Below are positions 1 through 30,139 of a stretch of DNA of 42,458 nt, piece by piece. Each line of letters opens with the position of its first letter. Positions within the stretch are counted from its first letter, which is position 1. Source of the DNA: a bacterium. Its GTDB lineage: Bacteria; Desulfobacterota; Desulfuromonadia; Desulfuromonadales; JAAYDE01. Made by a program: the position numbers and the translations under genes. The stretch is taken from NCBI GenBank assembly GCA_024696325.1, contig JAILGY010000029.1, forward strand, positions 1-42,458, read 5' to 3'. The notes below the pieces were generated by a model. It was not told the origin of the DNA. It ran no database searches and saw nothing but the letters and a program-made list of their open reading frames with translations.

Positions 1-2
1 TG

Positions 3-65
3 GCTTCTGATGGCGACGGCAGCGACCTGTGGCGCATTGAGACCAGACTCCGCTTCAAATTCTAA
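3..65 (+). CDS. 3' end of an upstream gene (partial). The C-terminus ...LWRIETRLRFKF* resembles the terminal strand of an outer-membrane beta-barrel.
   Basis: Open frame running in from the window edge to TAA at 63-65. It ends in an alternating hydrophobic pattern with a terminal Phe and is followed by an intrinsic terminator. Confidence 0.3.
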   Translation, partial: ASDGDGSDLWRIETRLRFKF

Positions 66-101
66 GATTTATTCTTTCGAATTATCGATGCTGTACAATA
101 T

Positions 102-133
102 GCCGGGCCGCAAGGCCCGGCTTTTTTGTTTTT
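102..133 (+). terminator. Rho-independent terminator
   Basis: GCCGGGCC-gcaa-GGCCCGGC hairpin followed by TTTTTTGTTTTT. Confidence 0.75.
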
Positions 134-155
134 GGACTCCCCCCGGCGCTTGCGC

Positions 156-340
156 GCCCCCCTCTCAGGGGGGCTTTAGGTTCTGGCGCCCCCTTTGGGG
201 GAGCTGGCCGCGCAGCGGCCTGAAGGGGTTGCCCTCTCCTTGGGAGGCTTTAAAGAGCCCTGTTTTGTAGGGGCGCACCTGTGTGTGCGCCCGTGTTTTG
301 TGCGCCGTGTTGCAATCACTGGCGACCACGCAGGGTCGCC
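156..340. other. Cluster of unrelated GC-rich hairpins in a non-coding spacer
   Basis: Five hairpins: GCCCCCC-tctca-GGGGGGC (156-174), CCCCC-ttt-GGGGG (189-201), GGCCGC-gca-GCGGCC (206-220), GGGCGCAC-ctgtgt-GTGCGCCC (271-292) and GGCGACC-acgcag-GGTCGCC (321-340). The fourth is flanked by direct TGTTTTGT copies at 261-268 and 294-301. Confidence 0.5.
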
Positions 341-438
341 CCTACTTCTGGCTCCTCGGAGAGGGACTGCGCGTGAACAATTCCTGGGGAATATCCTCTT
401 GAAATATCAAGCTTTTCGCTGTGCTTTCTTCAAAGCTT

Positions 439-470
439 AGGAAAATCTAAAGTCTACTTTAGATTTTCCT
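439..470. repeat. AT-rich 15-bp perfect inverted repeat with a 2-nt spacer
   Basis: AGGAAAATCTAAAGT-ct-ACTTTAGATTTTCCT. It extends imperfectly to CTTAGG.../...CCTAGG. Confidence 0.6.
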
Positions 471-516
471 AGGTTTATCCTATACAACCTGTATTTGAAG
501 GTTCTGGTCGGATAAA

Positions 517-554
517 GGCAAACAAAAGCCCCGGCCTTTTCAGTCCGGGGCTTT
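517..554 (-). terminator. Rho-independent terminator of the DUF2828-like gene
   Basis: AAAGCCCCGG / CCGGGGCTTT stem (525-534 / 545-554). On the minus strand it is followed by TTTTGTTTG, 30 nt past the stop at 584. Confidence 0.7.
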
Positions 555-583
555 ATACTTTTCTTCTTGTGAAGCCAAATTTT

Positions 584-2053
584 TTACGCAGCCACGCTGA
601 TGGCCGCGTACCGTTCGTCATTGAGGATTTTCAGCATGGCCTCCAGCGGAGTCAGTCCCACACAGTCCATGACATGTTTGAAAGTGGCAGCGGACTGGCC
701 GCTCACCAGCTGGACTCCGCGCCGCTTGGCATCGGAGTGGAACACGTCATGGCGGCTGTTTACATTCCAGAAGATGACGTTGGGCAGATTATAACCCGCT
801 TCGCGGAAGCGCTGCTCCATCTGCTCATGGAAGGTCCAGCTCTTGTCGCCGCACCGGTCGATCTCCATGTCGGAGATGACGATCAACGATTTGGGCATTT
901 CCTCTTCCGGCACATGATGTTTGATGGCAATGCCCAGCACCCGCTCGAAGGCGCCCCTGAGGTTGGTATTTTGCGCCCAGGCATTCATATCGAGGCTGGC
1001 GATCTTCTGTGCCAGCGTCTCGCCCCTGAGCAGGTGGATGCGCGAATTGTTGGAAAAGGACATCCACATGTTGTGGTAGGCGCCGGTATTGCGTTCGGCG
1101 AAGTAAATGGCCAGCCCCACGGAAGTGGCCATGGGACGGCCCCTCATGGATCCGGAAGTGTCGGCGATGACCAGGGCGTTTGTGCCCGGTGCCACATAGT
1201 TTGGCAACTGTCGCCACTGGGCTTCCACCACCTTGTCCTCCCGGGGAGTTTCCCACCAATCCGCCCAGACTTTTTCTACCAGATCGTAGGGGAAGAGCGT
1301 GCCGGAATGGATTGTTTCCTCACCGTTTATGGCCCGGTCGATATAGGCGTTGTAGCGTTCCTCGTCATGCCGCAGGAAGGCCTTGCGATAGAGCAGCATG
1401 GCCCGGCTGGGCACGGCGGGATAGCGGATTTCATCCCAGCGTCCGGTGGACATCAGCGCCTCAATGATCCCCAGTTTTTTGCGCAGTGCCCGCACGATGC
1501 GCTTGAAATCGTAGACCCGGTAGCCCAGTTTCAGTGCCGTGAGAATGCCCAGGCGGCGGGTTTCCGCCGAGCTGGAATCGGCGGTCTTGATCCACTTGGC
1601 CAGAAGGGAAATCGCGCCGTTGGGGATCTCCAGAGCGGTACGGTCCTCCTCGAACTGTTTCTTCATGGCCGCCCACATATCCGCTTCCAGCGGTGTGCCG
1701 ACAAGCGTGTAAAGATCATCGTAGCGGCCATAGATACCGACCAGATCCAGATTGGGGCGCAGGGCCTCGGGATGATATTCGGCCATATGACGCATGAGCG
1801 TGCGGAAGGTGCGACGCTCGCCCAGGCCGCCGCGCACGTCGCGGCCGTAAAACGCGATCTTGACCGCCAGCAGCGGGTTTTCCCGGTACGCATCGGCAAA
1901 GAGACGGTTTATCCGTGTCTCTGCCGCTTCCCGAAGCGCGCCCATCGTACCGAACAGATCGAGCAGGCTGCTCCCCGTGCCGTTCAAGGCAAGCGCATCG
2001 TTTTCGGTGCGTGTCCACCTGGCATTTTCTCTGGCCGCATCCGCAAAATCCAT
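584..2053 (-). CDS. DUF2828-like protein: alpha-helical N-terminal domain plus C-terminal von Willebrand A domain with a MIDAS motif (Ro60/TROVE-like architecture)
   Basis: 489 aa counted from the internal ATG at 2053, which is preceded by AAGGAGAACCAC. DxSxS MIDAS motif in ALVIADTSGSMRG and a later SLIVISDME strand. I recognise the family from memory of DUF2828 proteins. The 27 codons upstream in the ORF track have no SD. Confidence 0.75.
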   Translation of the reverse strand: MDFADAARENARWTRTENDALALNGTGSSLLDLFGTMGALREAAETRINRLFADAYRENPLLAVKIAFYGRDVRGGLGERRTFRTLMRHMAEYHPEALRPNLDLVGIYGRYDDLYTLVGTPLEADMWAAMKKQFEEDRTALEIPNGAISLLAKWIKTADSSSAETRRLGILTALKLGYRVYDFKRIVRALRKKLGIIEALMSTGRWDEIRYPAVPSRAMLLYRKAFLRHDEERYNAYIDRAINGEETIHSGTLFPYDLVEKVWADWWETPREDKVVEAQWRQLPNYVAPGTNALVIADTSGSMRGRPMATSVGLAIYFAERNTGAYHNMWMSFSNNSRIHLLRGETLAQKIASLDMNAWAQNTNLRGAFERVLGIAIKHHVPEEEMPKSLIVISDMEIDRCGDKSWTFHEQMEQRFREAGYNLPNVIFWNVNSRHDVFHSDAKRRGVQLVSGQSAATFKHVMDCVGLTPLEAMLKILNDERYAAISVAA

Positions 2054-2086
2054 GTGGTTCTCCTTGCATGACCCGTTGTGTCGTTT

Positions 2087-2107
2087 TATCCATGGCGTGC
2101 ATGGATA
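2087..2107 (-). promoter_or_regulatory. 8-bp inverted repeat in the leader of the DUF2828-like gene
   Basis: TATCCATG-gcgtg-CATGGATA, 34 nt upstream of the start codon and between the tRNA-like RNA and the CDS. Confidence 0.25.
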
Positions 2108-2148
2108 TGACCAAAAAATTGCTGTGAGGGTCACTGTTCAAATTTGAA

Positions 2149-2258
2149 GGCAGGGACCGGATTCGAACCGGTGGCCTAGTCGAAATGGGATTTGCTGCTG
2201 GGTTCACGGAACATGAGCCGTTTTTGAACAACTCGCTCTGCCGCTGAGCTACCCTGCC
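2149..2258 (-). ncRNA. tRNA-like RNA (110 nt) with canonical acceptor, D and T arms but a 46-nt insertion in place of the anticodon loop
   Basis: The reverse complement folds as GGCAGGG-UA-GCUC-AGCGGCA-GAGC-G-AGUUG-[46 nt]-CGACU-AGGCC-ACCGG-UUCGAAU-CCGGU-CCCUGCC. U8, A14, the D-loop GG and the UUCGAAU T-loop are all present. No CCA is encoded. Confidence 0.7.
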
Positions 2259-2349
2259 ACTGCTGCTTTTGCTGAAGCGGCGGTGTTTCTCCAAAACAGC
2301 GCGACGACCTGTGCGGAAAACATCCTCCGATTCGCTTGCAAGAAGGAGC

Positions 2350-2682
2350 TTACTTGAAGAGATTGTTTCCGCAGTGGGGGCAGCTGAACGCGCTGGTGGT
2401 GGTGATGCGGTGTCCGCAGACCGGGCAGTTGAACCAGTGCCGGCAGTAGCGGCATTGCATTTCCGCAAGCCCCTGCTTTTTTTTGCACTTGGAACAGCGT
2501 TTGTACATCTTGCGCTTCTCCATGTAGTCTGCAAACAGCAGTCCGCAACGCGGGCATTCCTCTGTCCCCGGTTTTTTGATGGAAAAGCCGCAGTTGGGCG
2601 CCGGACAGACAAAAACGGTTTTGCAGTTGCCGCACCAGTATTTTCCTTTTGTCTGCTCACCACAGACCGGGCATTTCTCCAT
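2350..2682 (-). CDS. Cysteine-rich multi-zinc-ribbon protein (110 aa)
   Basis: Eight CxxC-type pairs (CPVC, CGNC, CPAPNC, CPRC, CSKC, CRYC, CPVC, CPHC), enough for four zinc ribbons. The ATG at 2682 is preceded by AAAGGGGGG. Confidence 0.6.
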   Translation of the reverse strand: MEKCPVCGEQTKGKYWCGNCKTVFVCPAPNCGFSIKKPGTEECPRCGLLFADYMEKRKMYKRCSKCKKKQGLAEMQCRYCRHWFNCPVCGHRITTTSAFSCPHCGNNLFK

Positions 2683-2981
2683 AGCGCCCCCCTTTGAGAA
2701 AGAGAGAACTTTTTTCACACCGTTACATTTTTTTGCTAACTCTCCTTTAAAAATAAACCATTTTTATCGTGGGCTGTCAATGTTCCGCCACATTGCGGCC
2801 ATTTCCCCGCCATCTTTGGGCGCCTTTTTACGAATATGGGGCATGGACGTGACGTCAGAAATATTTTAGGATAGACAAAGATTAATGAGCCGCCCCTGTT
2901 CCCGTTCGTCGGGAAAGCCGGCGTCACCATGAACCGCCATCAAGGCGCTTGTCTCTCTTTGGAAGGGAAGGATCGAGGCCC

Positions 2982-5900
2982 ATGCCTACAGAACATTCAG
3001 GATTTGTTACCGAGCGCGTAACCGAATTGAAGGATCTCCGCCTGACACTGCACCAGCTGCGGCACAAAGCGACCGGCGCGCGTTTCGTGCATCTGGCCAA
3101 CGACGACCAGGAAAACGTGTTCGGCGTCGGATTCCGCACCACGCCCCTCAACTCCAGCGGTGTGGCGCATATTCTTGAACATACGACGCTGTGCGGTTCC
3201 CGGCGCTATCCGGTACGGGACATTTTCTTTTCCATGCTGAACCGCAGTCTCAACACGTTTATGAATGCCCTGACCGCCAGCGACTGGACTTTCTACCCCT
3301 TTGCCACCCAGAACCGCAAGGATTTCCATAATCTGATGGAGGTTTATCTCGATGCGGCCTTCTTTCCGCTTCTGCGGCGCACCGATTTTCACCAGGAGGG
3401 GATCCGCTTTGAGCTGGACGGCGGGAAAACGCTGCTTCCAAAGGGTGTGGTCTATAATGAAATGAAGGGCGCGCTTTCCAATCCGGCCACGCTGGCCTAT
3501 TACCGTCTGACCGAAGCACTGTATCCAACGACCACCTATGGCTGGAATTCCGGCGGGGAGCCCGACGCCATCCTCGACCTTACCTGGGAGGAACTGCGAC
3601 AGTTTCATGACACCTACTATCATCCCAGCAACGCCTTGTTCTACTCCTATGGCAGTTTCCCGCTGGAGGAGACGCTGGGGCTGGTTCATGAGCGGGTGCT
3701 GCGCCATTTCGGCACCCAGACGGTTCAAAGCGCCGTCCCGCTGGAACAGCGTTTTTCCAGTCCCAAGCATGTGGAAAAAAGCTTTGCACTGGAAGCTGGC
3801 CAGCCCCTGGAGCGGCGCGCGCTTTTGCTTATGGGCTGGTTGACCAATCCGATTGAGGAGCAGCTTGAAGGGTTGGGCCTGACCCTGCTTTCCGAGCTGC
3901 TTTTGGGGGATGCCGCCGCACCTTTGCGCAAGGCGCTGATCGATTCCCGGCTGGGAGAGGGGATCTGCCCCGGTTCCGGCTATCACGACGAAAATCGCGA
4001 AACTTTTTTCGCCGCCGGTCTTGAGGGAACCGATCCCGGGCAGGCAGGCAATCTGGAAAAGCTGATACTGGAGACGCTGGAAAAGACGGCCGCCGCCGGT
4101 TTCGAGCGGGAACGCGTCGAATCCGCCATCCATCAGCTGGAACTCGCCCACCGCGAAATTGGCGGCGGCGAGCCCTACGGGCTGCAGTTGCTGATGCGCC
4201 TGGTTGGCACGTGGATGCACTGCGACGATCCCCTGGCTGCCTTACGTTTTGACGAACACATCGAAACGATTCGCCGCGAGGCGGAAAATGGCTTTTTCGA
4301 AGGTCTGATCCGTAAGCATTTGCTGGACAATTCCCACAGGGTTTCGCTGCTGCTCAAACCGGATCCGAAAGAGGAGGAACGCCAGAACGCCGCGACCGCT
4401 ACAGCCATGCGGGAAAAACTGGCGGCGCTTTCACCGGAGGAACGCCAGCAACTGGTCGACGAGGCGCAGGAACTCCGAGACTTTCAGGAAGGCGCCGACG
4501 ATGTTTCCTGTCTGCCGAGCTTGAGCCTGGAAGACATTCCCGCCGAGGAGAACGCCACCCCCTGGAAGAACATGACGCACAACGGCGCACCGCTCTTTGG
4601 TTTTGAGCTTTCGACCAACGGCATTGGCTATTTTGGATCCTGGCTGGATTTGGCGGATGTCCCGGAGCATGTGCGCGCCTATGTGCCGGTCTTTTCGTTT
4701 CTGCTGACCCGTGTCGGCGCGGGCGGGGACGATTATCTGACCATGGCCCGGCGGATTGCCGCCGCAACCGGCGGGGTCTCGGCCACGCCTCTGGTGCTGG
4801 GCGCTCCTTCCGGTCTTCGTGATCATCGCTTGCTGCTGTCCGTCAGCGGCAAGGCGCTGATGCGCAATCAGAAGGAGATGTTTCAAATATTGAGGGATCT
4901 GCTGTATGCGCCGGATTTCAGGGATCGCAAACGGCTTGCGACCCTGCTGGATCAACTGAAGGTGTCGCTGGTCAACTCGGTTGCCGACTCTGGCCACCGC
5001 TATGCGATGCAGCTCGCGGCCGCTTCTTTGAGTGCAGCCGGCCAAAGGCGGGAGGAATGGTCCGGCATTGGCTTCATTCGTCAGGTTTGCACGCTGGCCG
5101 GGCTGGATGATTCGGGCTGGGCGGATTTTGAAGCGCGTCTTGAGGAACTGAAAATTTTTCTGGCGGAGAATGGAAGTATCCAGTATTCTGCTTTAACATC
5201 TCCGGGTGATTTGCCCATGCTGCTTGACAGTTTGCCCATTCTGACAAAGGGACATGCGGGATACGGCAATGGCGCCCGGTGTCTTTCGGGGGCGGCGTCT
5301 CCGGCAGCGCGGGCTGTGGGAGTGGCCATACCGGCGGCGGTTTCCTATGTGGCGCGGGTGTGGCCCGCTGTTACGCTGGAGCATGAGGATTGCGCCGGGT
5401 TGCTGGTGCTGGCCAAGCTGTTGCGCAGTTGCTTTCTGCATCGCGAAATTAGGGAAAAAGGCGGCGCATATGGCGGACTTGCCTCGTTCGATCCGGGAGC
5501 CGGCGTGTTCGCAATGGCTTCCTATCGCGATCCGAGACTGGCCGGAACCTTGCGTGACTACCGGCGGGCTGCGGAATGGGCCGCATCTGGTGCTTTTGAG
5601 GATCGGGATGTTGAGGAATCCATTTTGGGCGCCTTCAGCGATCTGGATCGGCCGCTTCCTCCGGAAGGGCGAAGCAATCGGGAAGTTCTGCGGCATTTGG
5701 CGGGCATTTCGCCCAAAATGCGCAAAGATTTGCGAGCCGGAATGCTGGCGGTGACGCGGAACGCCTTGTGTGATCTTGCCACGCGTTATCTGGTCAAACA
5801 GTGGGAACAAAGCGCCGTCGGCGTGTTGTCCAGCCGGGAAATGCTGCTCCGTGCCAACGAGGAACTGGAGGGCGAGATACTGACTGTTAACGAGCTGTAA
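2982..5900 (+). CDS. M16C (PreP/insulinase-like) zinc metallopeptidase
   Basis: 972 aa. HxxEH motif in GVAHILEHTTLCGSRRYP. The length and layout are typical of the M16C family. The ATG at 2982 follows GGAAGGGAAGGA. Confidence 0.85.
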   Translation: MPTEHSGFVTERVTELKDLRLTLHQLRHKATGARFVHLANDDQENVFGVGFRTTPLNSSGVAHILEHTTLCGSRRYPVRDIFFSMLNRSLNTFMNALTASDWTFYPFATQNRKDFHNLMEVYLDAAFFPLLRRTDFHQEGIRFELDGGKTLLPKGVVYNEMKGALSNPATLAYYRLTEALYPTTTYGWNSGGEPDAILDLTWEELRQFHDTYYHPSNALFYSYGSFPLEETLGLVHERVLRHFGTQTVQSAVPLEQRFSSPKHVEKSFALEAGQPLERRALLLMGWLTNPIEEQLEGLGLTLLSELLLGDAAAPLRKALIDSRLGEGICPGSGYHDENRETFFAAGLEGTDPGQAGNLEKLILETLEKTAAAGFERERVESAIHQLELAHREIGGGEPYGLQLLMRLVGTWMHCDDPLAALRFDEHIETIRREAENGFFEGLIRKHLLDNSHRVSLLLKPDPKEEERQNAATATAMREKLAALSPEERQQLVDEAQELRDFQEGADDVSCLPSLSLEDIPAEENATPWKNMTHNGAPLFGFELSTNGIGYFGSWLDLADVPEHVRAYVPVFSFLLTRVGAGGDDYLTMARRIAAATGGVSATPLVLGAPSGLRDHRLLLSVSGKALMRNQKEMFQILRDLLYAPDFRDRKRLATLLDQLKVSLVNSVADSGHRYAMQLAAASLSAAGQRREEWSGIGFIRQVCTLAGLDDSGWADFEARLEELKIFLAENGSIQYSALTSPGDLPMLLDSLPILTKGHAGYGNGARCLSGAASPAARAVGVAIPAAVSYVARVWPAVTLEHEDCAGLLVLAKLLRSCFLHREIREKGGAYGGLASFDPGAGVFAMASYRDPRLAGTLRDYRRAAEWAASGAFEDRDVEESILGAFSDLDRPLPPEGRSNREVLRHLAGISPKMRKDLRAGMLAVTRNALCDLATRYLVKQWEQSAVGVLSSREMLLRANEELEGEILTVNEL

Positions 5901-5920: not shown

Positions 5921-7360
5921 ATGTTTATTGACTATAGGTCACCCCGGGAACGGGCCGGACAGTTCCAGCCCAAGACGAAAAAGATGCGCGGGAGAACGAT
6001 CCTGGAATGCCTGGGGATGGTGGCAGGGATCGCGGCGATTCTTCTGTGGACCACCCTGGAAATTACGCCGGTTGATACCGCTTATGAGGCGGGAGAGGAA
6101 AAACGGCCTGATTCTTCCTCTTTGGTCATACCGGAGGAGAATCCGTTTTTGAGTATGGATGAGGGCTTGCCGAAAGAGGCGGAAATGGAGCGGGATCCCC
6201 TGTTTTCGGCAGAGGAAGAGGCCACGTCCACCGCTGATGAGGTGGTGACCGGCGTTATCAATCCTGAAGAAACCTTTACCACCCTGTTGACAAAGTATCT
6301 TTCAACGGCGGAGGTCATCAAAATTGCGGATAAATGCCGTCCTGTCTTCCCCCTGGGACGGATGCAGGTGGGACAGCCCTACAAGTTTCATATCGACAAA
6401 GGGCTTTTCAGCCGTTTCGTCTATGAGATCGACGACAAGGATCAACTTATCATCACACGTGGGAAAAAAGATTTTGTGGTAAAACGCGAAAAGATTCCCT
6501 GCGAGGTGCGGATCCAGACCGTACGCGTGAACATCCGCTCCAGCCTGTCCGGTGCGGTGGCCAGTGCCGGAGAATCCCGGGAACTGGCCAGCAGGGTAGC
6601 GGGAATTTTCGCCTGGGATGTCGATTTCCTTCGCGATATCCGTGCGGGAGATTCCTTCAGCGTTGTTGTGGAAAAGCGGTTTCGCAAGGACAAGTTCGTT
6701 GGCTATGGCAAGATACTGGCTGCGGAAATTGTCAATCAGGGCACCACGTACAAGGCCTACAGGTATGAAACCCGCAAGGGCGTTTTTGGCTATTTCGACG
6801 AAAATGGCAAAAGTCTGCAAAAAGGGTTTCTGCGGGCTCCGCTTGCCTATACCCGCATATCCTCCCGTTTCACCTACCGGCGTTTTCATCCGGTACTGAA
6901 ACGCTATCGTCCTCATACCGGCGTTGACTACGCGGCACCCAGAGGAACGCCGATTCATTCCGTGGCATCTGGTGTGGTGACGGAACGGGGATACAACCGG
7001 TTCAACGGCAAGTTCGTCCGGATTCGCCACAACAACGGCATGGAGACGCTGTACAACCACATGAGCAGTTTTGCGCCGGGGCTCAGTGTGGGAGGGCATG
7101 TACCCCAGGGCAGGATGATTGGCAGGGTGGGTTCGACCGGTCTTTCCACCGGGCCGCATCTTGATTTCCGTATGTACCGCAACGGCGTGCCCATCGATCC
7201 GCTTTCCGTCAAGACCATTTACGCCGATCCGGTTCCAGCGCGGAAAATTGCGGATTTCCGCGCATTGGTCAAATCCTATGCGCCCCAGTTGAAAGCCGGC
7301 GTTCCGATCAATATCGGTGTCGCGGAAAAGAAGGGCAAAAGCTTGATGAAAGGCGGGTGA
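5921..7360 (+). CDS. M23 family peptidoglycan metalloendopeptidase with an N-terminal membrane anchor
   Basis: HTGVDYAAPRGTPIHSVASGVV and GSTGLSTGPHLDFRMY motifs. TM segment ILECLGMVAGIAAILLW. GGAG lies upstream of the ATG. An alternative start at Met23 is possible. Confidence 0.85.
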   Translation: MFIDYRSPRERAGQFQPKTKKMRGRTILECLGMVAGIAAILLWTTLEITPVDTAYEAGEEKRPDSSSLVIPEENPFLSMDEGLPKEAEMERDPLFSAEEEATSTADEVVTGVINPEETFTTLLTKYLSTAEVIKIADKCRPVFPLGRMQVGQPYKFHIDKGLFSRFVYEIDDKDQLIITRGKKDFVVKREKIPCEVRIQTVRVNIRSSLSGAVASAGESRELASRVAGIFAWDVDFLRDIRAGDSFSVVVEKRFRKDKFVGYGKILAAEIVNQGTTYKAYRYETRKGVFGYFDENGKSLQKGFLRAPLAYTRISSRFTYRRFHPVLKRYRPHTGVDYAAPRGTPIHSVASGVVTERGYNRFNGKFVRIRHNNGMETLYNHMSSFAPGLSVGGHVPQGRMIGRVGSTGLSTGPHLDFRMYRNGVPIDPLSVKTIYADPVPARKIADFRALVKSYAPQLKAGVPINIGVAEKKGKSLMKGG

Positions 7361-7411: not shown

Positions 7412-7436
7412 TGCGGAAAAATTGAAGAGAGAAATG

Positions 7437-7520
7437 CCTTGGGGAGTTTTTACTGAGAATCCCTGAAGAAGGGATAACCCATCGAACCTGATCCGGGTAA
7501 TGCCGGCGAAGGGAAGTGGC
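7437..7520 (+). promoter_or_regulatory. TPP (THI-box) riboswitch aptamer
   Basis: Conserved elements GGGGAG...CUGAGA...ACCC...GAACCUGAUCCGGGUAAUGCCGGCGAAGGGAA lie upstream of the thiamine genes. Confidence 0.9.
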
Positions 7521-7568
7521 AACAAAGCGCGTATCCGCTGTGCGTTATGCGTGATAGTCGTTGTATCA

Positions 7569-7597
7569 GGGCCGCTTTCCGCGGCCTTTGTTTTTTT
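7569..7597 (+). terminator. Riboswitch-controlled attenuator terminator
   Basis: GGGCCGC-tttcc-GCGGCC followed by TTTGTTTTTTT, 50 nt before the thiF start. Confidence 0.75.
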
Positions 7598-7646
7598 GCC
7601 TCGTGCCAGAGGCCGCATGCCCATCTTGAGGGGAAGAAGGTGTGCA

Positions 7647-8456
7647 ATGGACGTTTCTGTCAATGAAAAACCGGTAAGTGTTTCGGAAGGTATGACCTTG
7701 TTTGCCCTCAGGGACAGCTGGAAGCCGGAGGCCGACATCATTATTGTCAACGGTTTCCCCTATGATCGTAAGGAGGACTGCCCGCTTGAGGAGGGGGATC
7801 GGGTGGTGCTGATCAGGCGTGGCGAAATTCCGGATGCCTCCGAGCTGGAAGCCCTGATGGCCTCCCGCCATACGCCCGGCGTGCACCAGAAGATGAAACG
7901 GGCGACGGTCGGCATTGCCGGTGCGGGGGGGCTGGGCTCGGCCATTGCGGTGGCCTTGGCGCGTATTGGCGTGGGGCATCTGATCCTCGCCGATTTTGAC
8001 ATTGTCGAACCTTCCAACCTCAATCGCCAGCAGTACTTTATCGATCAGATAGGTCTTCCCAAGGTAGAAGCGCTTGCGGCCAATCTGGGCCGCATCAATC
8101 CCTATGTGAAGGTGACCACGCACAATCTCCGGCTTACGTCACACAACGTTCCGGAGATCTTTGCCGCGGTGGATGTGATGGTGGAAGCTTTCGACCGCGC
8201 ATCGGAAAAGGCGATGCTTATTGAAACTTTCCGGAGCGGTTTTCCGTCGGTCCCCCTGGTGGCCGCATCGGGCGTTGCCGGCAATGATCCGGCCAACACG
8301 GTGCGTACCCGGCGGCTTTTGGACAATTTTTATCTGGTAGGTGACGGCGTTACCGGAGCGCAACCGGGCCGGGGGCTGATGGCGCCGCGCGTGGGCGTCG
8401 CCGCGCACCATCAGGCCAATGCGGTGGTGCGCCTGCTGTTGGGCGAGGAGCCCTGA
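7647..8456 (+). CDS. thiF: ThiF-type adenylyltransferase with an N-terminal ThiS-like beta-grasp domain
   Basis: 269 aa counted from the ATG at 7647, which follows GGGGAAGAAGG. Nucleotide-binding motif GIAGAGGLGS. The first ~60 aa are ThiS-like (MDVSVNEKPVSV...VVLIRRGE). The longer ORF-track start would overlap the riboswitch and terminator. Confidence 0.85.
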   Translation: MDVSVNEKPVSVSEGMTLFALRDSWKPEADIIIVNGFPYDRKEDCPLEEGDRVVLIRRGEIPDASELEALMASRHTPGVHQKMKRATVGIAGAGGLGSAIAVALARIGVGHLILADFDIVEPSNLNRQQYFIDQIGLPKVEALAANLGRINPYVKVTTHNLRLTSHNVPEIFAAVDVMVEAFDRASEKAMLIETFRSGFPSVPLVAASGVAGNDPANTVRTRRLLDNFYLVGDGVTGAQPGRGLMAPRVGVAAHHQANAVVRLLLGEEP

Positions 8457-25582: not shown

Positions 25583-25599
25583 GAAGAACCTTTCCATGG

Positions 25600-25776
25600 G
25601 TGGAAGGGACGTTTCGGTGTCCACTTTTCGTGGGTGAAAAGGGAAGAGGGGCGTACATCCCCCGCGGACCCGCCGCTGTGATCAGCCGTTTTTCGTCTTT
25701 TGTGCCACTGGGCCTCCTGAAGGGGCCTGGGAAGGCAGACGGAAAACCATGACTGTAAGCCAGAAGACCTGCCGGA
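25600..25776 (+). promoter_or_regulatory. Cobalamin (B12) riboswitch
   Basis: GGUGAAAAGGGAA...CAUCCCCCGCGGACCCGCCGCUGU, then GCCACUGGGCC...CCUGGGAAGGC, and the B12 box AGCCAGAAGACCUGCC (25758-25773). It sits upstream of a TonB-dependent receptor. Confidence 0.88.
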
Positions 25777-25882
25777 ACGTATATATTCACACTCTCTTCG
25801 GGTGATTGGGAGGGCGTCCTGATGTGCGGTGCGCAAAGGTTTGCGTGGGCCTGGCGGAGGCGTTTGCGAACCTGTACGGGAG

Positions 25883-25922
25883 AGCCCGCTCTTCTTTTGA
25901 TGGGAAGAGATCGGGCTTTTTT
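25883..25922 (+). terminator. Riboswitch expression-platform terminator
   Basis: AGCCCGCTCTTC / GAAGAGatCGGGCT hairpin followed by TTTTTT, about 70 nt before the btuB start. Confidence 0.7.
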
Positions 25923-25992
25923 GTCGGCCGCCGCGGTCCAGGCTTGCCTTGCGCCTTTCATCGCGGAGGGAACAACTGCGAGGAGGTTGTTT

Positions 25993-27990
25993 ATGGCAAG
26001 AACGATGGCAAGGATTATGGTGTTGCTGCTGACGCCGCTGTGGCTTGGGGCGTTGGCGGCCCAGGGGCTTCTGGCTCAGGAAACGAAAGGCAGGGAACCG
26101 GCGCCGAAGGATTCGGTGGCACTGGAACCGGTGGTGGTCACTGCCACCCGTATGGAAACGCCGCTTCAGGAAGTGATCGGTTCCTGTACGGTCATTACCG
26201 CCGAGGAAATCGCCGCCAAACAGTACCGCACCGTGCAGGAGGCGCTCAAGAGCGTGCCGGGGCTGGATGTGGTGCGTGCGGGAGCCTTGGGGCAGCAAAC
26301 ATCGGTTTTTCTGCGGGGAGGCAATTCGGAACATGTATTGGTGCTGATCGACGGCGTGGTGGCCAACGATCCCTCCATGCCGGGGCGCAACTTTGATTTC
26401 GCGCATTTGACCACCGACAATGTTGAACGCATTGAGGTGATGCGTGGTCCGCAAAGCGTGCTGTATGGTTCGGATGCCATGACCGGCGTCATCCAGATCA
26501 TCACCCGGAAGGGGCAGGGTGGTCCCCATGCCCATGTCGCGCTGGAGGGCGGCAGCTTCCGTACCTTGCGCGAGTCGGCCGCCGTTTCCGGAAGCAAAAA
26601 ACGCGTCAACTATGCCCTTGCGGTTTCACGCACCGACAGTGACGGCATCAGTGCCGCCGCCAAAAAAGACGGCAACCATGAGCATGACGGCTACCAGAAT
26701 ACCGCTGTCTCGTTGCGGCTGGGCGTTCAACCCACGGAGAAATCCTATATCGATTTTATAGGCCGCTATCAGGATACCCGGACCGAGATGGACAACTTCG
26801 GCGGCCCTCTGGGCGATGATCCCAACTCGCTTGCCAATGCCCATTTTCTGCACTTGCGCCTGCAGGGGGGCTTGCGCCTTTGGGACGACCGGCTTGATAC
26901 CCGGTTGGCTGCCTCCTTGGCCGATTATCGCCGCAAGTATGACAATGATACCGATGCTTCGCATCCCGGCGACAGTTCTTACTCGACGTACGACAGCAGT
27001 CTGTACAAGTTCGAATGGCAGAATGATCTGCGGCTGGCCGAATGGAATACGCTTTCCCTGGGCGCGGAGTATCAGGAAGAGGAGATGAAGAGCCGCTATA
27101 GCTCGGAATCCGTCTATTATGGCATGAGCTACGTCTCTTCAGAGCGGTTTCCGGAAAAGTCCCGTTCACTTTCCAGTGTTTATCTGCAAGAGCAACTCCA
27201 GTGGCAGAAACGCTACTTTATCACTCTGGGGGCGCGTTTGGACGAACATGAGGATTTTGGCTCCAAGGCTACCTGGAAGGCGGCCGCCGCCTATATTGTG
27301 CCGGTGACGGAAAGCAAGCTGAGCGTTTCCTACGGAACAGCCTTCAAGGCGCCTTCGCTCTATCAGCTCTACGCCCATACCGACTATGTGCAGGGTAACC
27401 GGCATCTGGATCCGGAAGAAAACCGTGGCTGGGATATCCGTCTGGAACAGCCGCTGTGGGAGCGGAGGATCGTCTTGAGCGCAGCCTGGTTCCAGAACGA
27501 CTTCAAAAATCTGATTACCACCGATCTGGATGAAAACTGGGTCTACCGCTATGTCAACGTCAACCGGGCGCGGGCGCGTGGAGTCGAGCTGGAAGCCAGA
27601 ATCGCGCCGGTGGAACAGCTGGAATTTTCCGCAAGCTATACCTATACCGATACGGAGGATCGCGAAACCGGTCTGGATCTGCTGCGGCGGCCGCGGCACA
27701 AGTTCGCGTTCAACACGCATTGGCAGGTGCTGGAAAGCCTGGGCGCCGATCTGCAGCTGCTCTGCGTGGGGCGCCGCCGCGACACCTTCTACAACGAGGC
27801 GACCTACGAGTCGGGACGGGTGACGCTTGCCGGTTACGCGCTGCTCAACGCGGCGATCTCCTGGGACGTGACGAAGAACGTGCAGCTGCAGGCACGTGTG
27901 GAAAACCTGCTGGATCGCGACTATGAGGAGGTCTGGGGCTACGGCACTCCCGGCATAGGCGCCTACGCGGGAATTCGGGTTGGCATCTGA
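25993..27990 (+). CDS. btuB: TonB-dependent receptor, BtuB-like
   Basis: 665 aa counted from the ATG at 25993, which follows GAGGAGG. Signal peptide, then TonB box/plug DSVALEPVVVTATRMETP. B12 riboswitch upstream. Confidence 0.88.
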   Translation: MARTMARIMVLLLTPLWLGALAAQGLLAQETKGREPAPKDSVALEPVVVTATRMETPLQEVIGSCTVITAEEIAAKQYRTVQEALKSVPGLDVVRAGALGQQTSVFLRGGNSEHVLVLIDGVVANDPSMPGRNFDFAHLTTDNVERIEVMRGPQSVLYGSDAMTGVIQIITRKGQGGPHAHVALEGGSFRTLRESAAVSGSKKRVNYALAVSRTDSDGISAAAKKDGNHEHDGYQNTAVSLRLGVQPTEKSYIDFIGRYQDTRTEMDNFGGPLGDDPNSLANAHFLHLRLQGGLRLWDDRLDTRLAASLADYRRKYDNDTDASHPGDSSYSTYDSSLYKFEWQNDLRLAEWNTLSLGAEYQEEEMKSRYSSESVYYGMSYVSSERFPEKSRSLSSVYLQEQLQWQKRYFITLGARLDEHEDFGSKATWKAAAAYIVPVTESKLSVSYGTAFKAPSLYQLYAHTDYVQGNRHLDPEENRGWDIRLEQPLWERRIVLSAAWFQNDFKNLITTDLDENWVYRYVNVNRARARGVELEARIAPVEQLEFSASYTYTDTEDRETGLDLLRRPRHKFAFNTHWQVLESLGADLQLLCVGRRRDTFYNEATYESGRVTLAGYALLNAAISWDVTKNVQLQARVENLLDRDYEEVWGYGTPGIGAYAGIRVGI

Positions 27991-28020: not shown

Positions 28021-28962
28021 ATGGATGTGATGCGCGGCGGGCGTTCTGCTTTTTTTGCGTTTGTACTCCTGGCTGCGGTGAGCCTTGCCTTTTGGTCTTC
28101 CGCTGCCAGCGCCCGCAGTGTGCGGGATGCGGTGGGGCGCCTTGTCGAGGTGCCGCAGACGCCGCGCCGCATCGTGTCGCTGGTGCCCAGCGTCACGGAA
28201 ATTCTTTATGCGGTAGGGGCGGAAAAGACGCTGGCGGGCATCACCGAGTTCAGCGACTATCCGCCCCGGGCCGCCCGCTTGCCCAGTGTGGGCCGCTACG
28301 ATCGCCCGAGTCTGGAGGCAATCGTGGCGTTGAAGCCCGATTTGGTGTTTGCCACCGCCGACTGTCACTCGCGCGGGTTTGTGGGCGCGCTCGAGAAATT
28401 GGGATTGGCCGTCTACGTGGTGTATGCGCGCAGTATCTCCGCCACCCTGAACGATATCCGCATCCTGGCGGAACTTGCCGGCCGGGCCAGGGAGGGGCAG
28501 GCGCTCGCGGATTCTATGGAACGGGAACTTGCGGCGATGCGGATGCGGAGCGCCGGCCGTCAAAGGCCGAAGGTGGTGCTCTGCATCATGCTGCGTCCGC
28601 TGATGGTCTGCACGCCGCGCACCCTGGGCGGAGAACTGCTGGCAGCGGCCGGAGCGGACAATCTGGTGCCGGATGGCGGCGCTTCCTATCCGGTCTGGAG
28701 CCGCGAAGCTCTGCTTGCCGCCGATCCGGATATCATTATTGCGGTCTCCCACGCGCAGGATGAGGATCCGGCGGCCTTTTTCCGCGTCCATGCCCCGGCG
28801 CTTGCCGGGCGGGTGCGGGTTGTTCCCGCCGACTGGCTCTGCCGTCCAGGCCCGCGTCTGCTTCTTGGGCTGCGGGCACTGGAGCGGGCGCTGGACGGTT
28901 GGGCATCTCGCCGGAATGAAACAGGGGACATGGGCCATGATCAAAATCGGGGGAAAATTTAA
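28021..28962 (+). CDS. Periplasmic cobalamin/siderophore-type substrate-binding protein (BtuF-like)
   Basis: Signal peptide. IVSLVPSVTEILYAVGAEKTLAGITEFSDYP is typical of Peripla_BP_2 proteins. Confidence 0.8.
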   Translation: MDVMRGGRSAFFAFVLLAAVSLAFWSSAASARSVRDAVGRLVEVPQTPRRIVSLVPSVTEILYAVGAEKTLAGITEFSDYPPRAARLPSVGRYDRPSLEAIVALKPDLVFATADCHSRGFVGALEKLGLAVYVVYARSISATLNDIRILAELAGRAREGQALADSMERELAAMRMRSAGRQRPKVVLCIMLRPLMVCTPRTLGGELLAAAGADNLVPDGGASYPVWSREALLAADPDIIIAVSHAQDEDPAAFFRVHAPALAGRVRVVPADWLCRPGPRLLLGLRALERALDGWASRRNETGDMGHDQNRGKI

Positions 28963-30139
28963 TACGGCGTTCTGCTACACGAATGAACTGGAAGAACTTG
29001 CCGCCGGGCAGATACGTGCTGTCTGCGATCAGGAAGCCTTCAAGGACTGCAGGATCCGCATAATGCCCGACGTGCATGCCGGCAAGGGCTGCACCATTGG
29101 CACCACCATGACCATCAGGGACAAAATCGTCCCGGGCATGGTTGGCGTCGATATTGGCTGCGGCATGGAAACGGTCAGGCTCAAAGAGCGCAGCGTTGAC
29201 TTTTCCAGACTTGACGATCTGATTCGCCGTCAAATCCCGTCCGGGCAGGATATCCGCAAGACCCCCTACGCGCCGAAGATCATGGAGAGCCTGCGAGAAC
29301 TGCGCTGCGCGGATCAGGTTAAGCTGGACAGGGCGGTTCACAGTGTCGGCACGCTTGGAGGCGGCAATCACTTCATCGAGCTCGACTGTGATGATGAAGG
29401 CTGCCTGTACCTCGTTGTGCATTCCGGCTCTAGGCATATCGGACTTGAAGTGGCCGAATACTACCAGAATCAGGGACGATACGCCCTGTGGGGAGGTGCC
29501 CGGTATCAGCTCAATGCCATGATAGAGGAACTCAAGGCGGCTGGCCGGCACTGGGAAATCGAGCCGATGATACGAAAAATGCGCAAGGAGCATCCGATCG
29601 ATATTCCGAAGGACCTTGCCTATGTCGAGGGCAGGCTCTTTGATGAGTATATCCATGATATGAGGATCGTCCAGGGCTTTGCCATGGAAAATCGCCGGGC
29701 GATGGTGCAGACGATCGTGAAAGGTCTCCATTTGACACCAGAGGAACAGTTCACGACCATCCATAACTATATCGACACGGAAAGCATGATCCTGCGCAAG
29801 GGATCCGTTTCCGCCCGGAAGCATGAAAAACTCCTCATCCCGATCAACATGCGCGATGGCAGTCTAATATGTCTTGGCAAGGGCAACCCGGACTGGAACT
29901 GTTCCGCTCCGCACGGAGCGGGAAGGCTCATGTCCCGCAAGGCCGCGATGAACTCACTTTCGCTGGAAGAATACCGCTCCGAAATGTCGGGCATCTTTTC
30001 GACCTGTGTATCGAAAGCTACGCTTGATGAAGCGCCCATGGCCTACAAGAGCATGAATGATATCGTTGATCATATAGGCCCGACCGCCGACATTGTGAAG
30101 CGGATCCAACCGGTCTACAACTTCAAGGCCGCCGAATAA
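28937..30139 (+). CDS. rtcB: RtcB-family RNA 3'-phosphate ligase (short, about 400 aa)
   Basis: MIKIGGKFNTAFCYT N-terminus, typical of short RtcB proteins. MPDVHAGKGCTIG, GGGNHFIE and APHGAGR motifs. The start overlaps the btuF-like gene by 26 nt. Confidence 0.88.
   Translation: MIKIGGKFNTAFCYTNELEELAAGQIRAVCDQEAFKDCRIRIMPDVHAGKGCTIGTTMTIRDKIVPGMVGVDIGCGMETVRLKERSVDFSRLDDLIRRQIPSGQDIRKTPYAPKIMESLRELRCADQVKLDRAVHSVGTLGGGNHFIELDCDDEGCLYLVVHSGSRHIGLEVAEYYQNQGRYALWGGARYQLNAMIEELKAAGRHWEIEPMIRKMRKEHPIDIPKDLAYVEGRLFDEYIHDMRIVQGFAMENRRAMVQTIVKGLHLTPEEQFTTIHNYIDTESMILRKGSVSARKHEKLLIPINMRDGSLICLGKGNPDWNCSAPHGAGRLMSRKAAMNSLSLEEYRSEMSGIFSTCVSKATLDEAPMAYKSMNDIVDHIGPTADIVKRIQPVYNFKAAE

What the first reader, a model, noticed from the sequence alone, without database searches (positions are those of the whole stretch)
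584..2053. DUF2828-like protein with Ro60-like architecture next to the tRNA mimic
The 489-aa protein combines a roughly 300-aa alpha-helical N-terminal region with a C-terminal vWA domain. The vWA domain carries an intact MIDAS motif (DTSGS in ALVIADTSGSMRG, with a later ISDME strand). This is the same two-domain layout as Ro60/Rsr (TROVE + vWA), which binds Y RNAs and misfolded RNAs.

The gene is co-oriented with the tRNA-like RNA and 95 nt downstream of it. An 8-bp inverted repeat (2087-2107) lies in between, and the gene ends at its own terminator (517-554). In Salmonella the rsr-yrlBA genes sit in an operon with rtcBA. Here an RtcB ligase gene is present in the same window but about 27 kb away, so that link is only suggestive. 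The function of DUF2828 proteins is, to my knowledge, uncharacterised.
Basis: partly seen in the sequence, partly recalled or inferred. Interest (0 to 1): 0.7.

Follow-up and report, generated by a model that had tools for sequence, protein, structure and literature searches.

The report
Ro60-like protein with its own RNAs
This gene encodes a distant relative of the RNA-binding Ro60 ring protein. It is flanked by two small RNAs, one of them shaped like a tRNA, that share a conserved motif found next to this protein family in many phages and bacteria, so this is probably an undescribed protein-RNA particle of the Ro60/Y-RNA type.

Summary
Window 584..2053 (-) encodes a 489-aa DUF2828+DUF7788 protein with an intact MIDAS motif, 94 nt downstream of a 111-nt tRNA-like RNA.

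The Ro60 comparison is mostly supported:
- The full-length AlphaFold model (pLDDT 96.6) retrieves only Ro60/TROVE structures at the top of the PDB search (E 1e-7, TM 0.5-0.6).
- A profile-profile alignment to Ro60 reaches about 90 residues beyond the vWA domain (E 2.8e-5).
- The helical domain alone gives no significant match, and no Pfam TROVE hit exists.

About 63 of 96 homologous loci carry one to four co-oriented 100-130-nt tRNA-like RNAs. In these, the anticodon loop is replaced by a covarying hairpin (CAUG...GUG) followed by RCAGCAA(U).

The same module, opened into a Y-RNA-like topology, lies in the 5' leader of the gene (window 2067..2134). It also occurs in LeBron, Listeria P100-like and Felix O1-like phages. 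RCAGCAA lies within 250 nt upstream of the gene in 77 of 95 loci, against a 3-6% background.

The zinc-ribbon gene and the window's RtcB gene are not conserved partners.

The family is already annotated 'Ro-like', and a probable orthologue (Bas63 gp130, identity inferred, not checked) counters the Ppl defence. The RNA partners appear undescribed. I file this as a new variant of a known kind.

The parts
584..2053 (-). CDS of the 489-aa DUF2828/DUF7788 protein (stop codon 584..586)
   Evidence: ORF. Pfam DUF2828 + DUF7788. PHROG 850 'RNA-binding protein' over the full length, E 2e-119. AF2 pLDDT 96.6.
1199..2053 (-). N-terminal all-helical domain (aa 1-285), ARM/HEAT-like solenoid with conserved basic residues (R41, R71, R74, R80, R110, K153, R191)
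   Evidence: DSSP of the models. Conserved columns. Co-linear with the Ro60 helical domain in full-length Foldseek alignments. Alone it gives no significant match.
587..1186 (-). C-terminal vWA domain (aa 290-489). MIDAS DTSGS is encoded at 1148..1162, with T363 and D395.
   Evidence: Pfam DUF7788 and VWA_2. Invariant D298, S300, S302, T363, D395. vWA structural matches. hhalign to the Ro60 vWA.
2148..2258 (-). Type A RNA: a full tRNA scaffold (acceptor, D and T arms) whose anticodon loop is replaced by the conserved module
   Evidence: Rfam tRNA 51.6 bits with a 41-nt insertion. Own covariance model 80.2 bits. Conserved with compensatory changes in the 87%-identity relative L097.
2192..2219 (-). 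Module inside the Type A RNA: hairpin GGCUCAUGUUCCGUGAACC (2201..2219), then CA, then GCAGCAA (2192..2198)
   Evidence: Hairpin covariation across 124 distinct sequences, all 7 pairs with double changes. Motif position.
2067..2134 (-). Type B RNA element in the 5' leader: GUGACCC-UC-ACAGCAAU (ACAGCAA at 2119..2125), inner hairpin, A-rich strand, GGGUCAUG. The closing helix is formed by the two ends and stops 1 nt before the Shine-Dalgarno sequence.
   Evidence: Found by search for complementary arms. The RNAfold MFE gives the same closing helix. Pairing is kept through G-U changes in L097. The same architecture is found in LeBron, Listeria P200 and Felix O1-like loci.
2087..2107 (-).
   Evidence: 8-bp stem with a 5-nt loop in the MFE and centroid folds. 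The stem is conserved and the loop changed in L097.
2060..2065 (-). Shine-Dalgarno AAGGAG, 1 nt after the 3' arm of the Type B helix
   Evidence: Sequence.
520..554 (-). Intrinsic-terminator-like hairpin and T-run ending the unit
   Evidence: Sequence reading. The + strand mirror is listed by the scan.
2350..2718 (-). Upstream 122-aa multi-CxxC zinc-ribbon ORF. It is a lineage-specific neighbour, not part of the conserved system.
   Evidence: Weak zinc-ribbon Pfam and NCBIfam hits. Present only in L097 and L098 among 98 loci.

Best explanation
The gene encodes a highly diverged Ro60-type protein: a helical solenoid plus a vWA/MIDAS domain. It works as a ribonucleoprotein with RNAs encoded right beside it.

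The RNAs share one recognition module. The module is a helix whose distal three pairs are C-G, A-U and U-G (written CAUG...GUG). A covarying 4-7-bp lower stem follows, then 1-3 nt, then single-stranded RCAGCAA(U). An A-rich strand lies opposite at the junction.

The window holds two copies of the module:
- Type A (2148..2258). The module is closed by a loop and sits where the anticodon loop of an otherwise complete tRNA would be.
- Type B (2067..2134). The helix is formed by the two ends of the element, as in Y RNAs, and a variable hairpin closes the junction. This copy is the mRNA leader, and its 3' arm abuts the ribosome-binding site.

Inferred mechanism:
- The protein binds the module.
- The tRNA-like or tRNA-fragment part presents a tRNA surface to other factors such as tRNA-processing, repair or cleaving enzymes.
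- The MIDAS face holds a protein partner.
- Binding to the leader copy feeds back on the protein's own translation.

In phages the particle probably acts in RNA-damage or counter-defence conflicts. In this bacterial chromosome it is a resident three-part cassette.

Shown here: the fold similarity, the conservation and covariation of the RNAs, and the co-location. Inferred: direct binding, autoregulation and the biological role.
For: Protein:
- The full-length AF2 model has pLDDT 96.6.
- The top 11 PDB matches are all Ro60/TROVE: E 1e-7 to 2e-5, TM 0.51-0.61, 515-571 aligned columns. vWA-only matches begin at E 6e-3.
- BFVD also returns TROVE and Ro-like phage proteins.
- hhalign of the family profile against a Ro60 profile gives probability 74% and E 2.8e-5, aligning DUF2828 204-463 with Ro60 264-542.
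- The MIDAS residues are invariant.

Type A RNA:
- 9 of about 10 genome loci carry long tRNA-like hits.
- With an own covariance model, 63 loci carry 131 long copies. All are on the gene strand, at a median of 635 nt upstream or 360 nt downstream, often 2-4 in tandem.
- Covariation: 98% of cells are paired, 22 of 23 pairs show double changes, and the score is 0.75, against 0.19 for shuffled and at most 0.13 for slid controls.

Type B RNA and the motif:
- A downstream CAUG with at least 5 complementary bases is found at 28% of sites, against 0.7% in controls.
- A closing helix of at least 7 is found at 49% of 270 distinct RCAGCAA sites, against 12.5% at random positions.
- RCAGCAA lies within 250 nt upstream of the start codon in 77 of 95 loci, against 2.6-6% of background windows.
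- ACAGCAA occurs 443 times on the gene strand and 55 times on the other.
- After de-replication, 25 of 32 protein clusters at 70% identity have the element by the narrow criteria. Most of the rest carry it downstream.

Other evidence:
- The elements are present in hosts from different phyla: LeBron, Listeria P200, Felix O1-like phages and a Desulfovibrio-like chromosome.
- They are absent from 7 canonical phage Ro60 loci.
- No protein neighbour is conserved.
- The cassette and both RNAs are kept at the same chromosomal site in an 87%-identity relative.
- Literature: Bas63 gp130 is Ro60-like, lies upstream of the tRNA array and counters Ppl (10.1101/2024.10.10.617714). Ro60 partners are encoded next to the gene and mimic tRNA (PMC4201824, PMC12135203).
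Against: - No binding data exist.
- The N-domain alone has no significant structural match, and Ro60 is not among its top 50 hits.
- There is no Pfam TROVE hit. An HMM profile search of PDB sequences finds only vWA proteins.
- The hhalign probability is only 74%.
- RMSD to Ro60 is 8-10 A.
- The RNAs lack the CGAA bulge motif of known Y RNAs.
- Type A RNAs are found in only 11 of 32 protein clusters at 70% identity.
- Two tRNA-context hallmark RNAs were found without a DUF2828 gene in the fetched stretch.
- The fold of the window leader alone is not better than shuffles (z -1.2).
- The loci are redundant: 97 loci make 55 clusters at 90% identity.
- The covariation alignment was fitted to the model.
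Confidence: 0.6

Rival explanations
1. The protein is Ro-like, but the neighbouring RNAs are not its ligands. They are phage tRNA decoys or processing signals recognised by a host or other phage factor, such as RNase P/Z/E, a tRNA-targeting nuclease or RtcB. They sit next to the gene only because all act in one pathway.
For: The RNAs lie inside or beside phage tRNA arrays. RtcB is a same-strand neighbour in 9 of 98 loci. Two hallmark RNAs were seen without a DUF2828 gene in the fetched stretch.
Against: The module follows the protein across phages of Actinobacteria, Firmicutes and Proteobacteria and into a bacterial chromosome that has no tRNA array. No other protein neighbour is conserved. 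The apical hairpin sequence changes together with the protein clade. A copy sits in the gene's own leader in most loci.
Confidence: 0.15
2. The RCAGCAA elements are purely cis-acting expression signals for the cassette, such as an attenuator, a translational operator or an RNase site. No stable trans-acting RNA is made, and the tRNA-like copies are degenerate tRNA genes that picked up the same signal.
For: A Type B element ends within about 35 nt of the start codon in most loci and abuts the SD in the window. In distant loci a TATAAT box lies about 20 nt before the element, so it starts the mRNA.
Against: Several tandem copies occur, including downstream of the gene and between tRNA genes (LeBron, Felix O1-like, Listeria). 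Type A copies keep full tRNA tertiary-interaction nucleotides and covarying acceptor, D and T stems. This argues for a folded, processed RNA.
Confidence: 0.1
3. The Type A RNAs are real tRNA genes interrupted by an intron-like insertion. The insertion is cut out and the halves are rejoined (for example by RtcB), and the DUF2828 protein acts as a processing scaffold.
For: The insertion lies in the anticodon region. In the window the flanks could give a 5-bp anticodon stem and a UUCAAAA loop. RtcB is nearby in some loci.
Against: Most copies have no reconstitutable 5-bp anticodon stem or 7-nt loop. The conserved part is the insertion, not an anticodon. The same module exists without any tRNA body. 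ARAGORN, which models introns, calls none of them.
Confidence: 0.07
4. The protein does not bind RNA. It is a vWA/MIDAS adaptor or assembly chaperone whose helical domain is a generic ARM/HEAT scaffold, and the similarity to Ro60 is convergent architecture.
For: The N-domain alone matches only ARM/HEAT repeats, weakly. One phage record calls it a structural protein. There is no TROVE sequence signal.
Against: The full-length model retrieves Ro60 structures and nothing else at significance. hhalign extends into the helical domain. Many invariant Arg/Lys residues lie in the helical domain. A conserved structured RNA is the only conserved neighbour.
Confidence: 0.06

Closest known systems
Ro60/Rsr with Y RNAs, in particular bacterial and phage YrlA (Chen et al. 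2014, PMC4201824; Thermus phage phiLo phiRo60-Yrl1/2, PMC12135203)
   Same: - Two-domain protein: helical repeats plus vWA with MIDAS.
- The best and only significant structural matches.
- Partner RNAs are encoded next to the gene, often in several copies.
- The RNAs are modular: a protein-binding stem formed by the 5' and 3' ends (Type B) plus a tRNA-like part.
- Occasional linkage to RtcB.
   Different: - There is no Pfam TROVE signal, and the helical domain alone is not recognisably Ro60.
- The RNA motif is CAUG/GUG + RCAGCAA(U), not the CGAA bulge.
- In Type A the tRNA is not permuted: it has ordinary ends, and the binding module is a closed hairpin in the anticodon position. This is the reverse of YrlA.
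- Seven canonical phage Ro60 loci lack the motif.
[not shown]
   Same: - Felix O1-like phages carry a DUF2828+DUF7788 gene directly upstream of the tRNA array.
- The authors speculated that some neighbouring 'tRNA genes' are Y RNAs.
   Different: - I did not verify the identity of gp130 with this family on the Bas63 record. It is inferred from the gene's position and from its presence in all 251 related records.
- The candidate RNAs found here in a Felix O1-like phage are not the annotated tRNAs. They are unannotated Type B elements in the gaps of the array (L015 5725, 6280, 6366).
- The window's copy is in a bacterial chromosome.
RNA-binding proteins that repress their own mRNA through a mimic of their RNA ligand (E. 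coli ThrRS operator, ribosomal proteins L1 and S8, T4 RegA/gp32). This is textbook knowledge.
   Same: The same recognition module is present in the trans RNA and in the gene's leader next to the ribosome-binding site.
   Different: Autoregulation is only inferred from position. The leader element could equally be processed into a free RNA.
tmRNA-SmpB and viral tRNA-like structures
   Same: A tRNA-shaped acceptor/T-arm domain is joined to a non-tRNA module and works with a dedicated protein.
   Different: There is no coding tag and no SmpB. ARAGORN finds no tmRNA. The D arm is complete, and the added module is a 40-55-nt insertion.

Membership tests
DUF2828/DUF7788 family (Pfam PF11443 + PF25043; PHROG 850) | Both Pfam models above their gathering scores, and a full-length match to the PHROG profile | tested here: met
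   DUF2828 134.9 bits (cut-off 29) and DUF7788 127.4 bits (cut-off 27.1). PHROG 850: E 2e-119, residues 1-483 of 489. 6415 representative clusters with E<=1e-3.
Ro60/TROVE family | TROVE domain detectable by sequence (Pfam PF05731) | tested here: not met
   No TROVE hit at E<=1 for the window protein or at E<=10 for 10 further members. The family profile against PDB sequences finds only vWA proteins.
Ro60/TROVE family | Profile-profile similarity extending into the helical domain | tested here: inconclusive
   hhalign A1 vs A6: probability 74%, E 2.8e-5. DUF2828 204-463 aligns with Ro60 264-542, which covers the vWA domain plus about 90 residues before it. Against human Ro60 alone, only the vWA domain aligns, at probability 3%.
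Ro60/TROVE family | Fold: helical-repeat ring closed by a vWA domain | tested here: inconclusive
   Full-length model: the top 11 PDB hits are all Ro60 (E 1e-7 to 2e-5, TM 0.51-0.61). N-domain alone: no significant hit, and Ro60 is not in the top 50. Ring closure could not be inspected because no coordinates are available.
Ro60/TROVE family | vWA domain with a MIDAS motif | tested here: met
   DxSxS (298-302), T363 and D395 are invariant in 138 sequences.
Ro60/TROVE family | Physical association with an adjacent-encoded non-coding RNA | not testable with these tools
   Only co-location and co-variation of the RNA type with the protein clade are shown.
Y RNA / YrlA | Stem formed by the 5' and 3' ends with a conserved bulge (CGAA / GNCGAAN0-1G), and a permuted tRNA-like domain | tested here: not met
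   No Y RNA-type Rfam hit at E<=10 in 1..3200. The motif here is RCAGCAA. Type B has the end-to-end stem, but Type A is an unpermuted tRNA scaffold. The features of YrlA are taken from PMC4201824.
tRNA (Rfam RF00005) | Cloverleaf with a 7-nt anticodon loop on a 5-bp stem | tested here: not met
   The score is above gathering (51.6 vs 29), but with a 41-nt insertion in the anticodon loop. ARAGORN calls none. The acceptor, D and T arms are intact and covary.
Known anti-phage defence systems (PADLOC) | Match to a defence-system protein model | tested here: not met
   No PADLOC family at E<=0.01 for the protein or for the zinc-ribbon ORF.

The most novel reading that the evidence does not exclude
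The DUF2828 particle is a modular 'tRNA-part display' platform. One conserved docking module (CAUG/GUG helix + RCAGCAA) tethers interchangeable baits to a Ro-like ring: a whole tRNA body, a T-arm, or an anticodon stem-loop with loops such as CUGCUAA, CUGUUAA or CUUUUAA. The baits would decoy, sense or repair attacks by tRNA-targeting immune nucleases. This would explain the gene's position in phage tRNA arrays, its occasional linkage to RtcB and the anti-Ppl phenotype of Bas63 gp130. The leader copy would set the protein level by autoregulation. The family also occurs in giant viruses, so related RNA partners could be sought there too.
Probability: 0.25. Interest if true: 0.85.

Novelty: new variant of a known kind. 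Interest (0 to 1): 0.72.

Why it matters
DUF2828/DUF7788 is a very large family: 6415 clusters at 50% identity, and 703 phage records including all Felix O1-like, P100-like and cluster L phages. It also occurs in giant viruses, and plant papers mention DUF2828 proteins. No molecular function is established for it.

Three consequences follow if the explanation is right:
- A defined, conserved and mutable RNA ligand candidate turns the 'Ro-like' annotation into direct experiments: EMSA, CLIP and a complex structure.
- It gives a mechanistic handle on the reported anti-defence role of Bas63 gp130.
- It would be a second, independent way of joining a Ro-type protein to a tRNA mimic. Here an unpermuted tRNA carries the docking hairpin in the anticodon position, whereas YrlA is a permuted tRNA. 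This bears on why Ro-type particles use tRNA mimicry at all.

It also flags more than a hundred unannotated small RNA genes in phage genomes, some inside 'tRNA arrays'.

Tried and rejected
- AcrIIIA1 (a protein-RNA anti-CRISPR that binds tRNA fragments, PMC11662646) was followed as a lead. The paper reports no Ro60, vWA or high-confidence structural homology for it, so I dropped it as unrelated, without comparing sequences.
- Zinc-ribbon partner: blastp of the 122-aa ORF against all ORFs of 98 loci finds it only in L097 and L098.
- RtcB linkage in the window: rejected. The gene is 26.6 kb away, on the opposite strand, beside B12-uptake genes.
- Conserved protein neighbours: all-against-all clustering of 4467 ORFs found none beyond the gene itself.
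- Sequence route to Ro60: phmmer and profile searches of PDB sequences give only vWA hits. hhalign against the single human Ro60 sequence aligns only the vWA domain.
- N-domain-only fold search: no significant match.
- Reverse test: scanning viral contigs with a 15-base RNA pattern was swamped by chance matches. Only 8 matches were informative.
- blastn of the window RNAs against phage records: no match.
- NCBIfam and PADLOC: no hits for the protein.
- A first, loose complementarity screen had too high a background to be useful. Stricter versions replaced it.
- A pairing of ACAGC with the GUUGU before the T arm, suggested by some single-sequence folds, is not general.
- Bas63 record: one accession guess (MZ501111) turned out to be Bas51, and I did not pursue it.
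- Supplement of the viral structured-RNA catalogue (PMC10690425): not held. Whether its highly expressed Lachnospiraceae-phage RNAs are these elements stays open.
Full report
**What is in the window.** The gene is on the minus strand. The mechanical ORF runs 584..2134 from a GTG. All close homologues are 489 aa and start MDFADAAR, which places the start at the ATG at 2053, with AAGGAG at 2060..2065. Pfam gives DUF2828 (E 4.4e-39) and DUF7788 (E 6.3e-37), plus a weak VWA_2 hit. NCBIfam and PADLOC give nothing. PHROG 850, 'RNA-binding protein', matches end to end (E 2e-119). In a 138-sequence family alignment the MIDAS residues D298, S300, S302, T363 and D395 are invariant, as are several basic residues of the helical half. 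Upstream, Rfam's tRNA model scores 51.6 bits at 2148..2258 (-), with 41 extra nucleotides in the anticodon loop. ARAGORN finds no tRNA in the whole window.

**Is the protein Ro60-like?** An AlphaFold2 model built on the family alignment is very confident (pLDDT 96.6, pTM 0.94). It has helices to about residue 285, followed by an alpha/beta domain. Against the PDB, the eleven best matches are all Ro60/TROVE structures: Xenopus and human Ro60 and the Thermus phage phiLo Ro60. They have E 1e-7 to 2e-5, TM 0.51-0.61 and 515-571 aligned columns. The next matches are vWA domains only, from E 6e-3 and TM about 0.2. Among viral predicted structures, the family's own members come first, followed by TROVE and 'Ro-like' phage proteins.

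It finds no significant match. The best hits are generic ARM/HEAT repeats (beta-catenin, importin-alpha, SARM1) at E 0.3-2, and Ro60 is not in the top 50.

Sequence methods are also weak. There is no Pfam TROVE hit in 11 members. The family profile finds only vWA proteins among PDB sequences. To go further I built a Ro60 profile. It contains human RO60, recalled from memory and verified as 537/538 identical to chain 9nen_A, plus seven phage TROVE proteins found by tblastn. hhalign against the DUF2828 profile gives probability 74% and E 2.8e-5 over 238 columns, aligning DUF2828 204-463 with Ro60 264-542. This covers the vWA domain plus about 90 residues of the preceding helical domain.

My reading is that the two-domain architecture is Ro60-like and common descent is likely. 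Homology of the whole helical domain to TROVE is not demonstrated, so the family should not simply be filed as TROVE.

**The RNA association.** In twelve genome loci encoding relatives (mostly Lachnospiraceae, one Deltaproteobacteria MAG), nine of about ten with upstream sequence carry one to three 113-130-nt Rfam-tRNA hits on the gene strand. Aligning fifteen of them shows intact acceptor, D and T arms. It also shows a conserved insertion: an A-rich linker, a hairpin with invariant CAUG...GUG, then ACAGCAAU.

A covariance model built from these sequences was run over 97 sources, about 1 Mb in total. They include 80 viral contigs with 38-69% identical proteins. The model finds 131 long copies in 63 loci. 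All are on the gene strand, at a median of 635 nt upstream or 360 nt downstream, and commonly 2-4 in tandem. The window's copy scores 80.2 bits. On the resulting alignment (124 distinct sequences), 98% of cells are paired and 22 of 23 pairs show changes on both sides. The covariation score is 0.75, against 0.19 in shuffles and at most 0.13 when partners are slid. The inserted hairpin has double changes at all seven pairs. The alignment is fitted to the model, which favours the structure, but the unfitted RNAalifold result agrees. A strict sequence hallmark occurs 110 times on the gene strand and never on the other strand.

**A second form of the same module.** The heptamer ACAGCAA is eight-fold strand-biased in these loci (443 vs 55). 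It recurs outside the tRNA-like RNAs, above all just upstream of the gene. RCAGCAA lies within 250 nt of the start codon in 77 of 95 loci, against 2.6-6% of control windows.

Reading these sites shows one architecture: GUG, a 4-7-nt arm, 1-3 nt, RCAGCAA(U), a variable 20-100-nt insert, an A-rich stretch, the complementary arm, then CAUG. This is the hairpin of the tRNA-like RNAs opened at its apex, so that the helix is formed by the two ends of the element, as in Y RNAs. I call the tRNA-embedded form Type A and this open form Type B. The arms covary, for example GAUGCUU/AAGCAUC, GACACAU/GUGUC, GACCCUU/AAGGGUC and GACUCAU/AUGAGUC.

Two controls that do not select on pairing support this. A downstream CAUG preceded by at least 5 complementary bases is found at 28% of GUG-N5-10-RCAGCAA sites, against 0.7% of controls. 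A closing helix of score at least 7 is found at 49% of 270 distinct sites, against 12.5% of random positions.

The inserts are often tRNA pieces. Some are stem-loops with 7-nt loops such as CUGCUAA, CUGUUAA or CUUUUAA. Others are T-arm-like GGUUCRANUCC hairpins.

In the window the Type B element is 2067..2134 (-). It reads GUGACCC-UC-ACAGCAAU, then the 2087..2107 hairpin, then AAAACGACACAAC, then GGGUCAUG, and it ends 1 nt before the Shine-Dalgarno sequence. RNAfold's minimum-energy fold of the 94-nt spacer gives exactly this closing helix, although the energy is not better than shuffles (z -1.2).

**Breadth and specificity.** Type B elements with 7-8.5-bp closing helices and an A-rich 3' junction occur in three well-known phage groups:
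- mycobacteriophage LeBron: at least two, in the gap after gp53;
- Listeria phage P200 (P100-like): three in tandem before the gene;
- a Felix O1-like coliphage: three, in unannotated gaps of the tRNA array.

All three proteins are DUF2828+DUF7788.

In more distant viral loci the apical hairpin sequence changes with the protein clade, for example AUCUUG..AAGAU or GAGGCGC stems, while RCAGCAA stays.

After de-replication, the 97 loci make 55 protein clusters at 90% identity and 32 at 70%. Of the 32, 25 have the element by the narrow criteria, and most of the remainder carry it downstream or with a one-base variant.

Seven canonical phage Ro60 loci have neither long tRNA-like hits nor RCAGCAA outside coding sequence.

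No protein neighbour is conserved across the loci. The zinc-ribbon ORF occurs only in two near-identical relatives. RtcB is a same-strand neighbour within 5 kb in 9 of 98 loci. In L004 it lies between the Type A RNA and the leader.

An 87%-identical homologue sits at the same chromosomal site, next to the M16 and M23 peptidase genes and the thi genes. It keeps both RNAs, with a compensatory A-U to G-C change in the T stem and G-U replacements in the leader helix. The window's cassette is therefore a stable chromosomal resident, not part of an intact prophage.

A reverse scan of viral contigs with the RNA pattern was dominated by chance matches. Of eight matches in a tRNA context, five had a DUF2828 gene in the stretch, one was cut by the end of the stretch, and two had none.

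**Mechanism.** The best-supported reading is a Ro60/Y-RNA-type particle. The protein docks on the conserved module: the sequence-invariant C-G/A-U/U-G pairs plus single-stranded RCAGCAA at the base of the helix. The attached tRNA body or tRNA fragment is the functional surface, and the MIDAS face binds a protein partner. The leader copy next to the ribosome-binding site suggests feedback on translation. All of this is inferred from position and conservation. The conservation, covariation, co-location and fold similarity are shown. Rival readings are scored in their own section: RNAs recognised by another factor, purely cis-acting signals, intron-containing tRNAs, and a protein that does not bind RNA.

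**Verdict.** The protein class was already suspected to be Ro-like. The new part is a defined RNA partner family with two topologies, present from actinophages to a Desulfovibrio-like chromosome. I rate it a new variant of a known kind, with interest 0.72.

Noticed in passing
L002-L074, e.g. L035 4846-4904, L033 2092-2151, L042 4625-4691, L049 4884-4984: The variable inserts of Type B elements are often anticodon-stem-loop look-alikes. They have 5-bp covarying stems and 7-nt loops CUGCUAA, CUGUUAA, CUUUUAA or UUGAUAA (anticodon-like GCU, GUU, UUU, GAU). Others are T-arm-like GGUUCRANUCC hairpins. These could be baits for anticodon nucleases.
   Followed up: partly
L004 2315-4001; L014 6773-8056; also L031, L032, L035, L038, L043, L056, L074: RtcB ligase genes lie on the same strand within 5 kb of the DUF2828 gene in 9 of 98 loci. 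In L004 the order is Type A RNA, RtcB, leader element, DUF2828, which recalls the Salmonella rsr-yrlBA-rtcBA operon.
   Followed up: partly
L015 5725, 6280, 6366 (Escherichia phage vB_EcoM_ASO1A, record about 26.4-27.1 kb): There are three unannotated Type B elements (CAGAAGACC..ACAGCAA..GGUCU) in the gaps of the Felix O1-type tRNA array, downstream of the DUF2828 gene. An extra weak tRNA-like hit lies at 7117-7195.
   Followed up: partly
L068 6768-6932, L070 6765-6930, L072 6770-6933 and 7783-7944: Some large gut-phage contigs carry 160-nt tRNA-like hits with even longer insertions that also contain (A/U)CAGCAA. They were not analysed.
   Followed up: no
window 25598-25790 (+) and 25822-27990 (+): A cobalamin riboswitch (106 bits) lies directly upstream of a TonB-dependent receptor gene, followed by a periplasmic binding protein gene (28021-28962). 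This is an ordinary B12-uptake arrangement.
   Followed up: no
window 7430-7533 (+): A TPP riboswitch (67.7 bits) lies ahead of an ORF at 7500-8456. In the relative L097, the genes flanking the corresponding region are ThiF, ThiS and ThiG genes and a radical SAM/BATS gene.
   Followed up: no
window 28673-30139 (+): In the RtcB ORF the Pfam match starts only at residue 127, and the ORF overlaps the preceding gene by about 290 nt. The true start is probably further downstream.
   Followed up: no
window 432-476: An AT-rich, near-perfect 20-bp hairpin (AAAGCUUAGGAAAAUCUAAAGU..ACUUUAGAUUUUCCUAGGUUU) lies just beyond the gene's terminator, in an otherwise 58% G+C region. Its function is unknown.
   Followed up: no
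window 35340-38663 (-): An 1107-aa ORF has an IcmF-related N-terminal domain (type VI secretion TssM-like).
   Followed up: no
phage collection as a whole: Two different protein families carry the same 'Ro-like RNA binding protein' label in phage records. True TROVE proteins occur in 356 records, mostly actinophages. DUF2828 proteins occur in 703 records across many host phyla. Annotation does not tell them apart.
   Followed up: partly
L162 (- strand, about 1540-1690 of the reverse complement) and L195: Two hallmark-containing tRNA-like RNAs have no DUF2828 gene within the fetched stretch. They may be orphans, or the gene may lie elsewhere in those phage genomes.
   Followed up: partly
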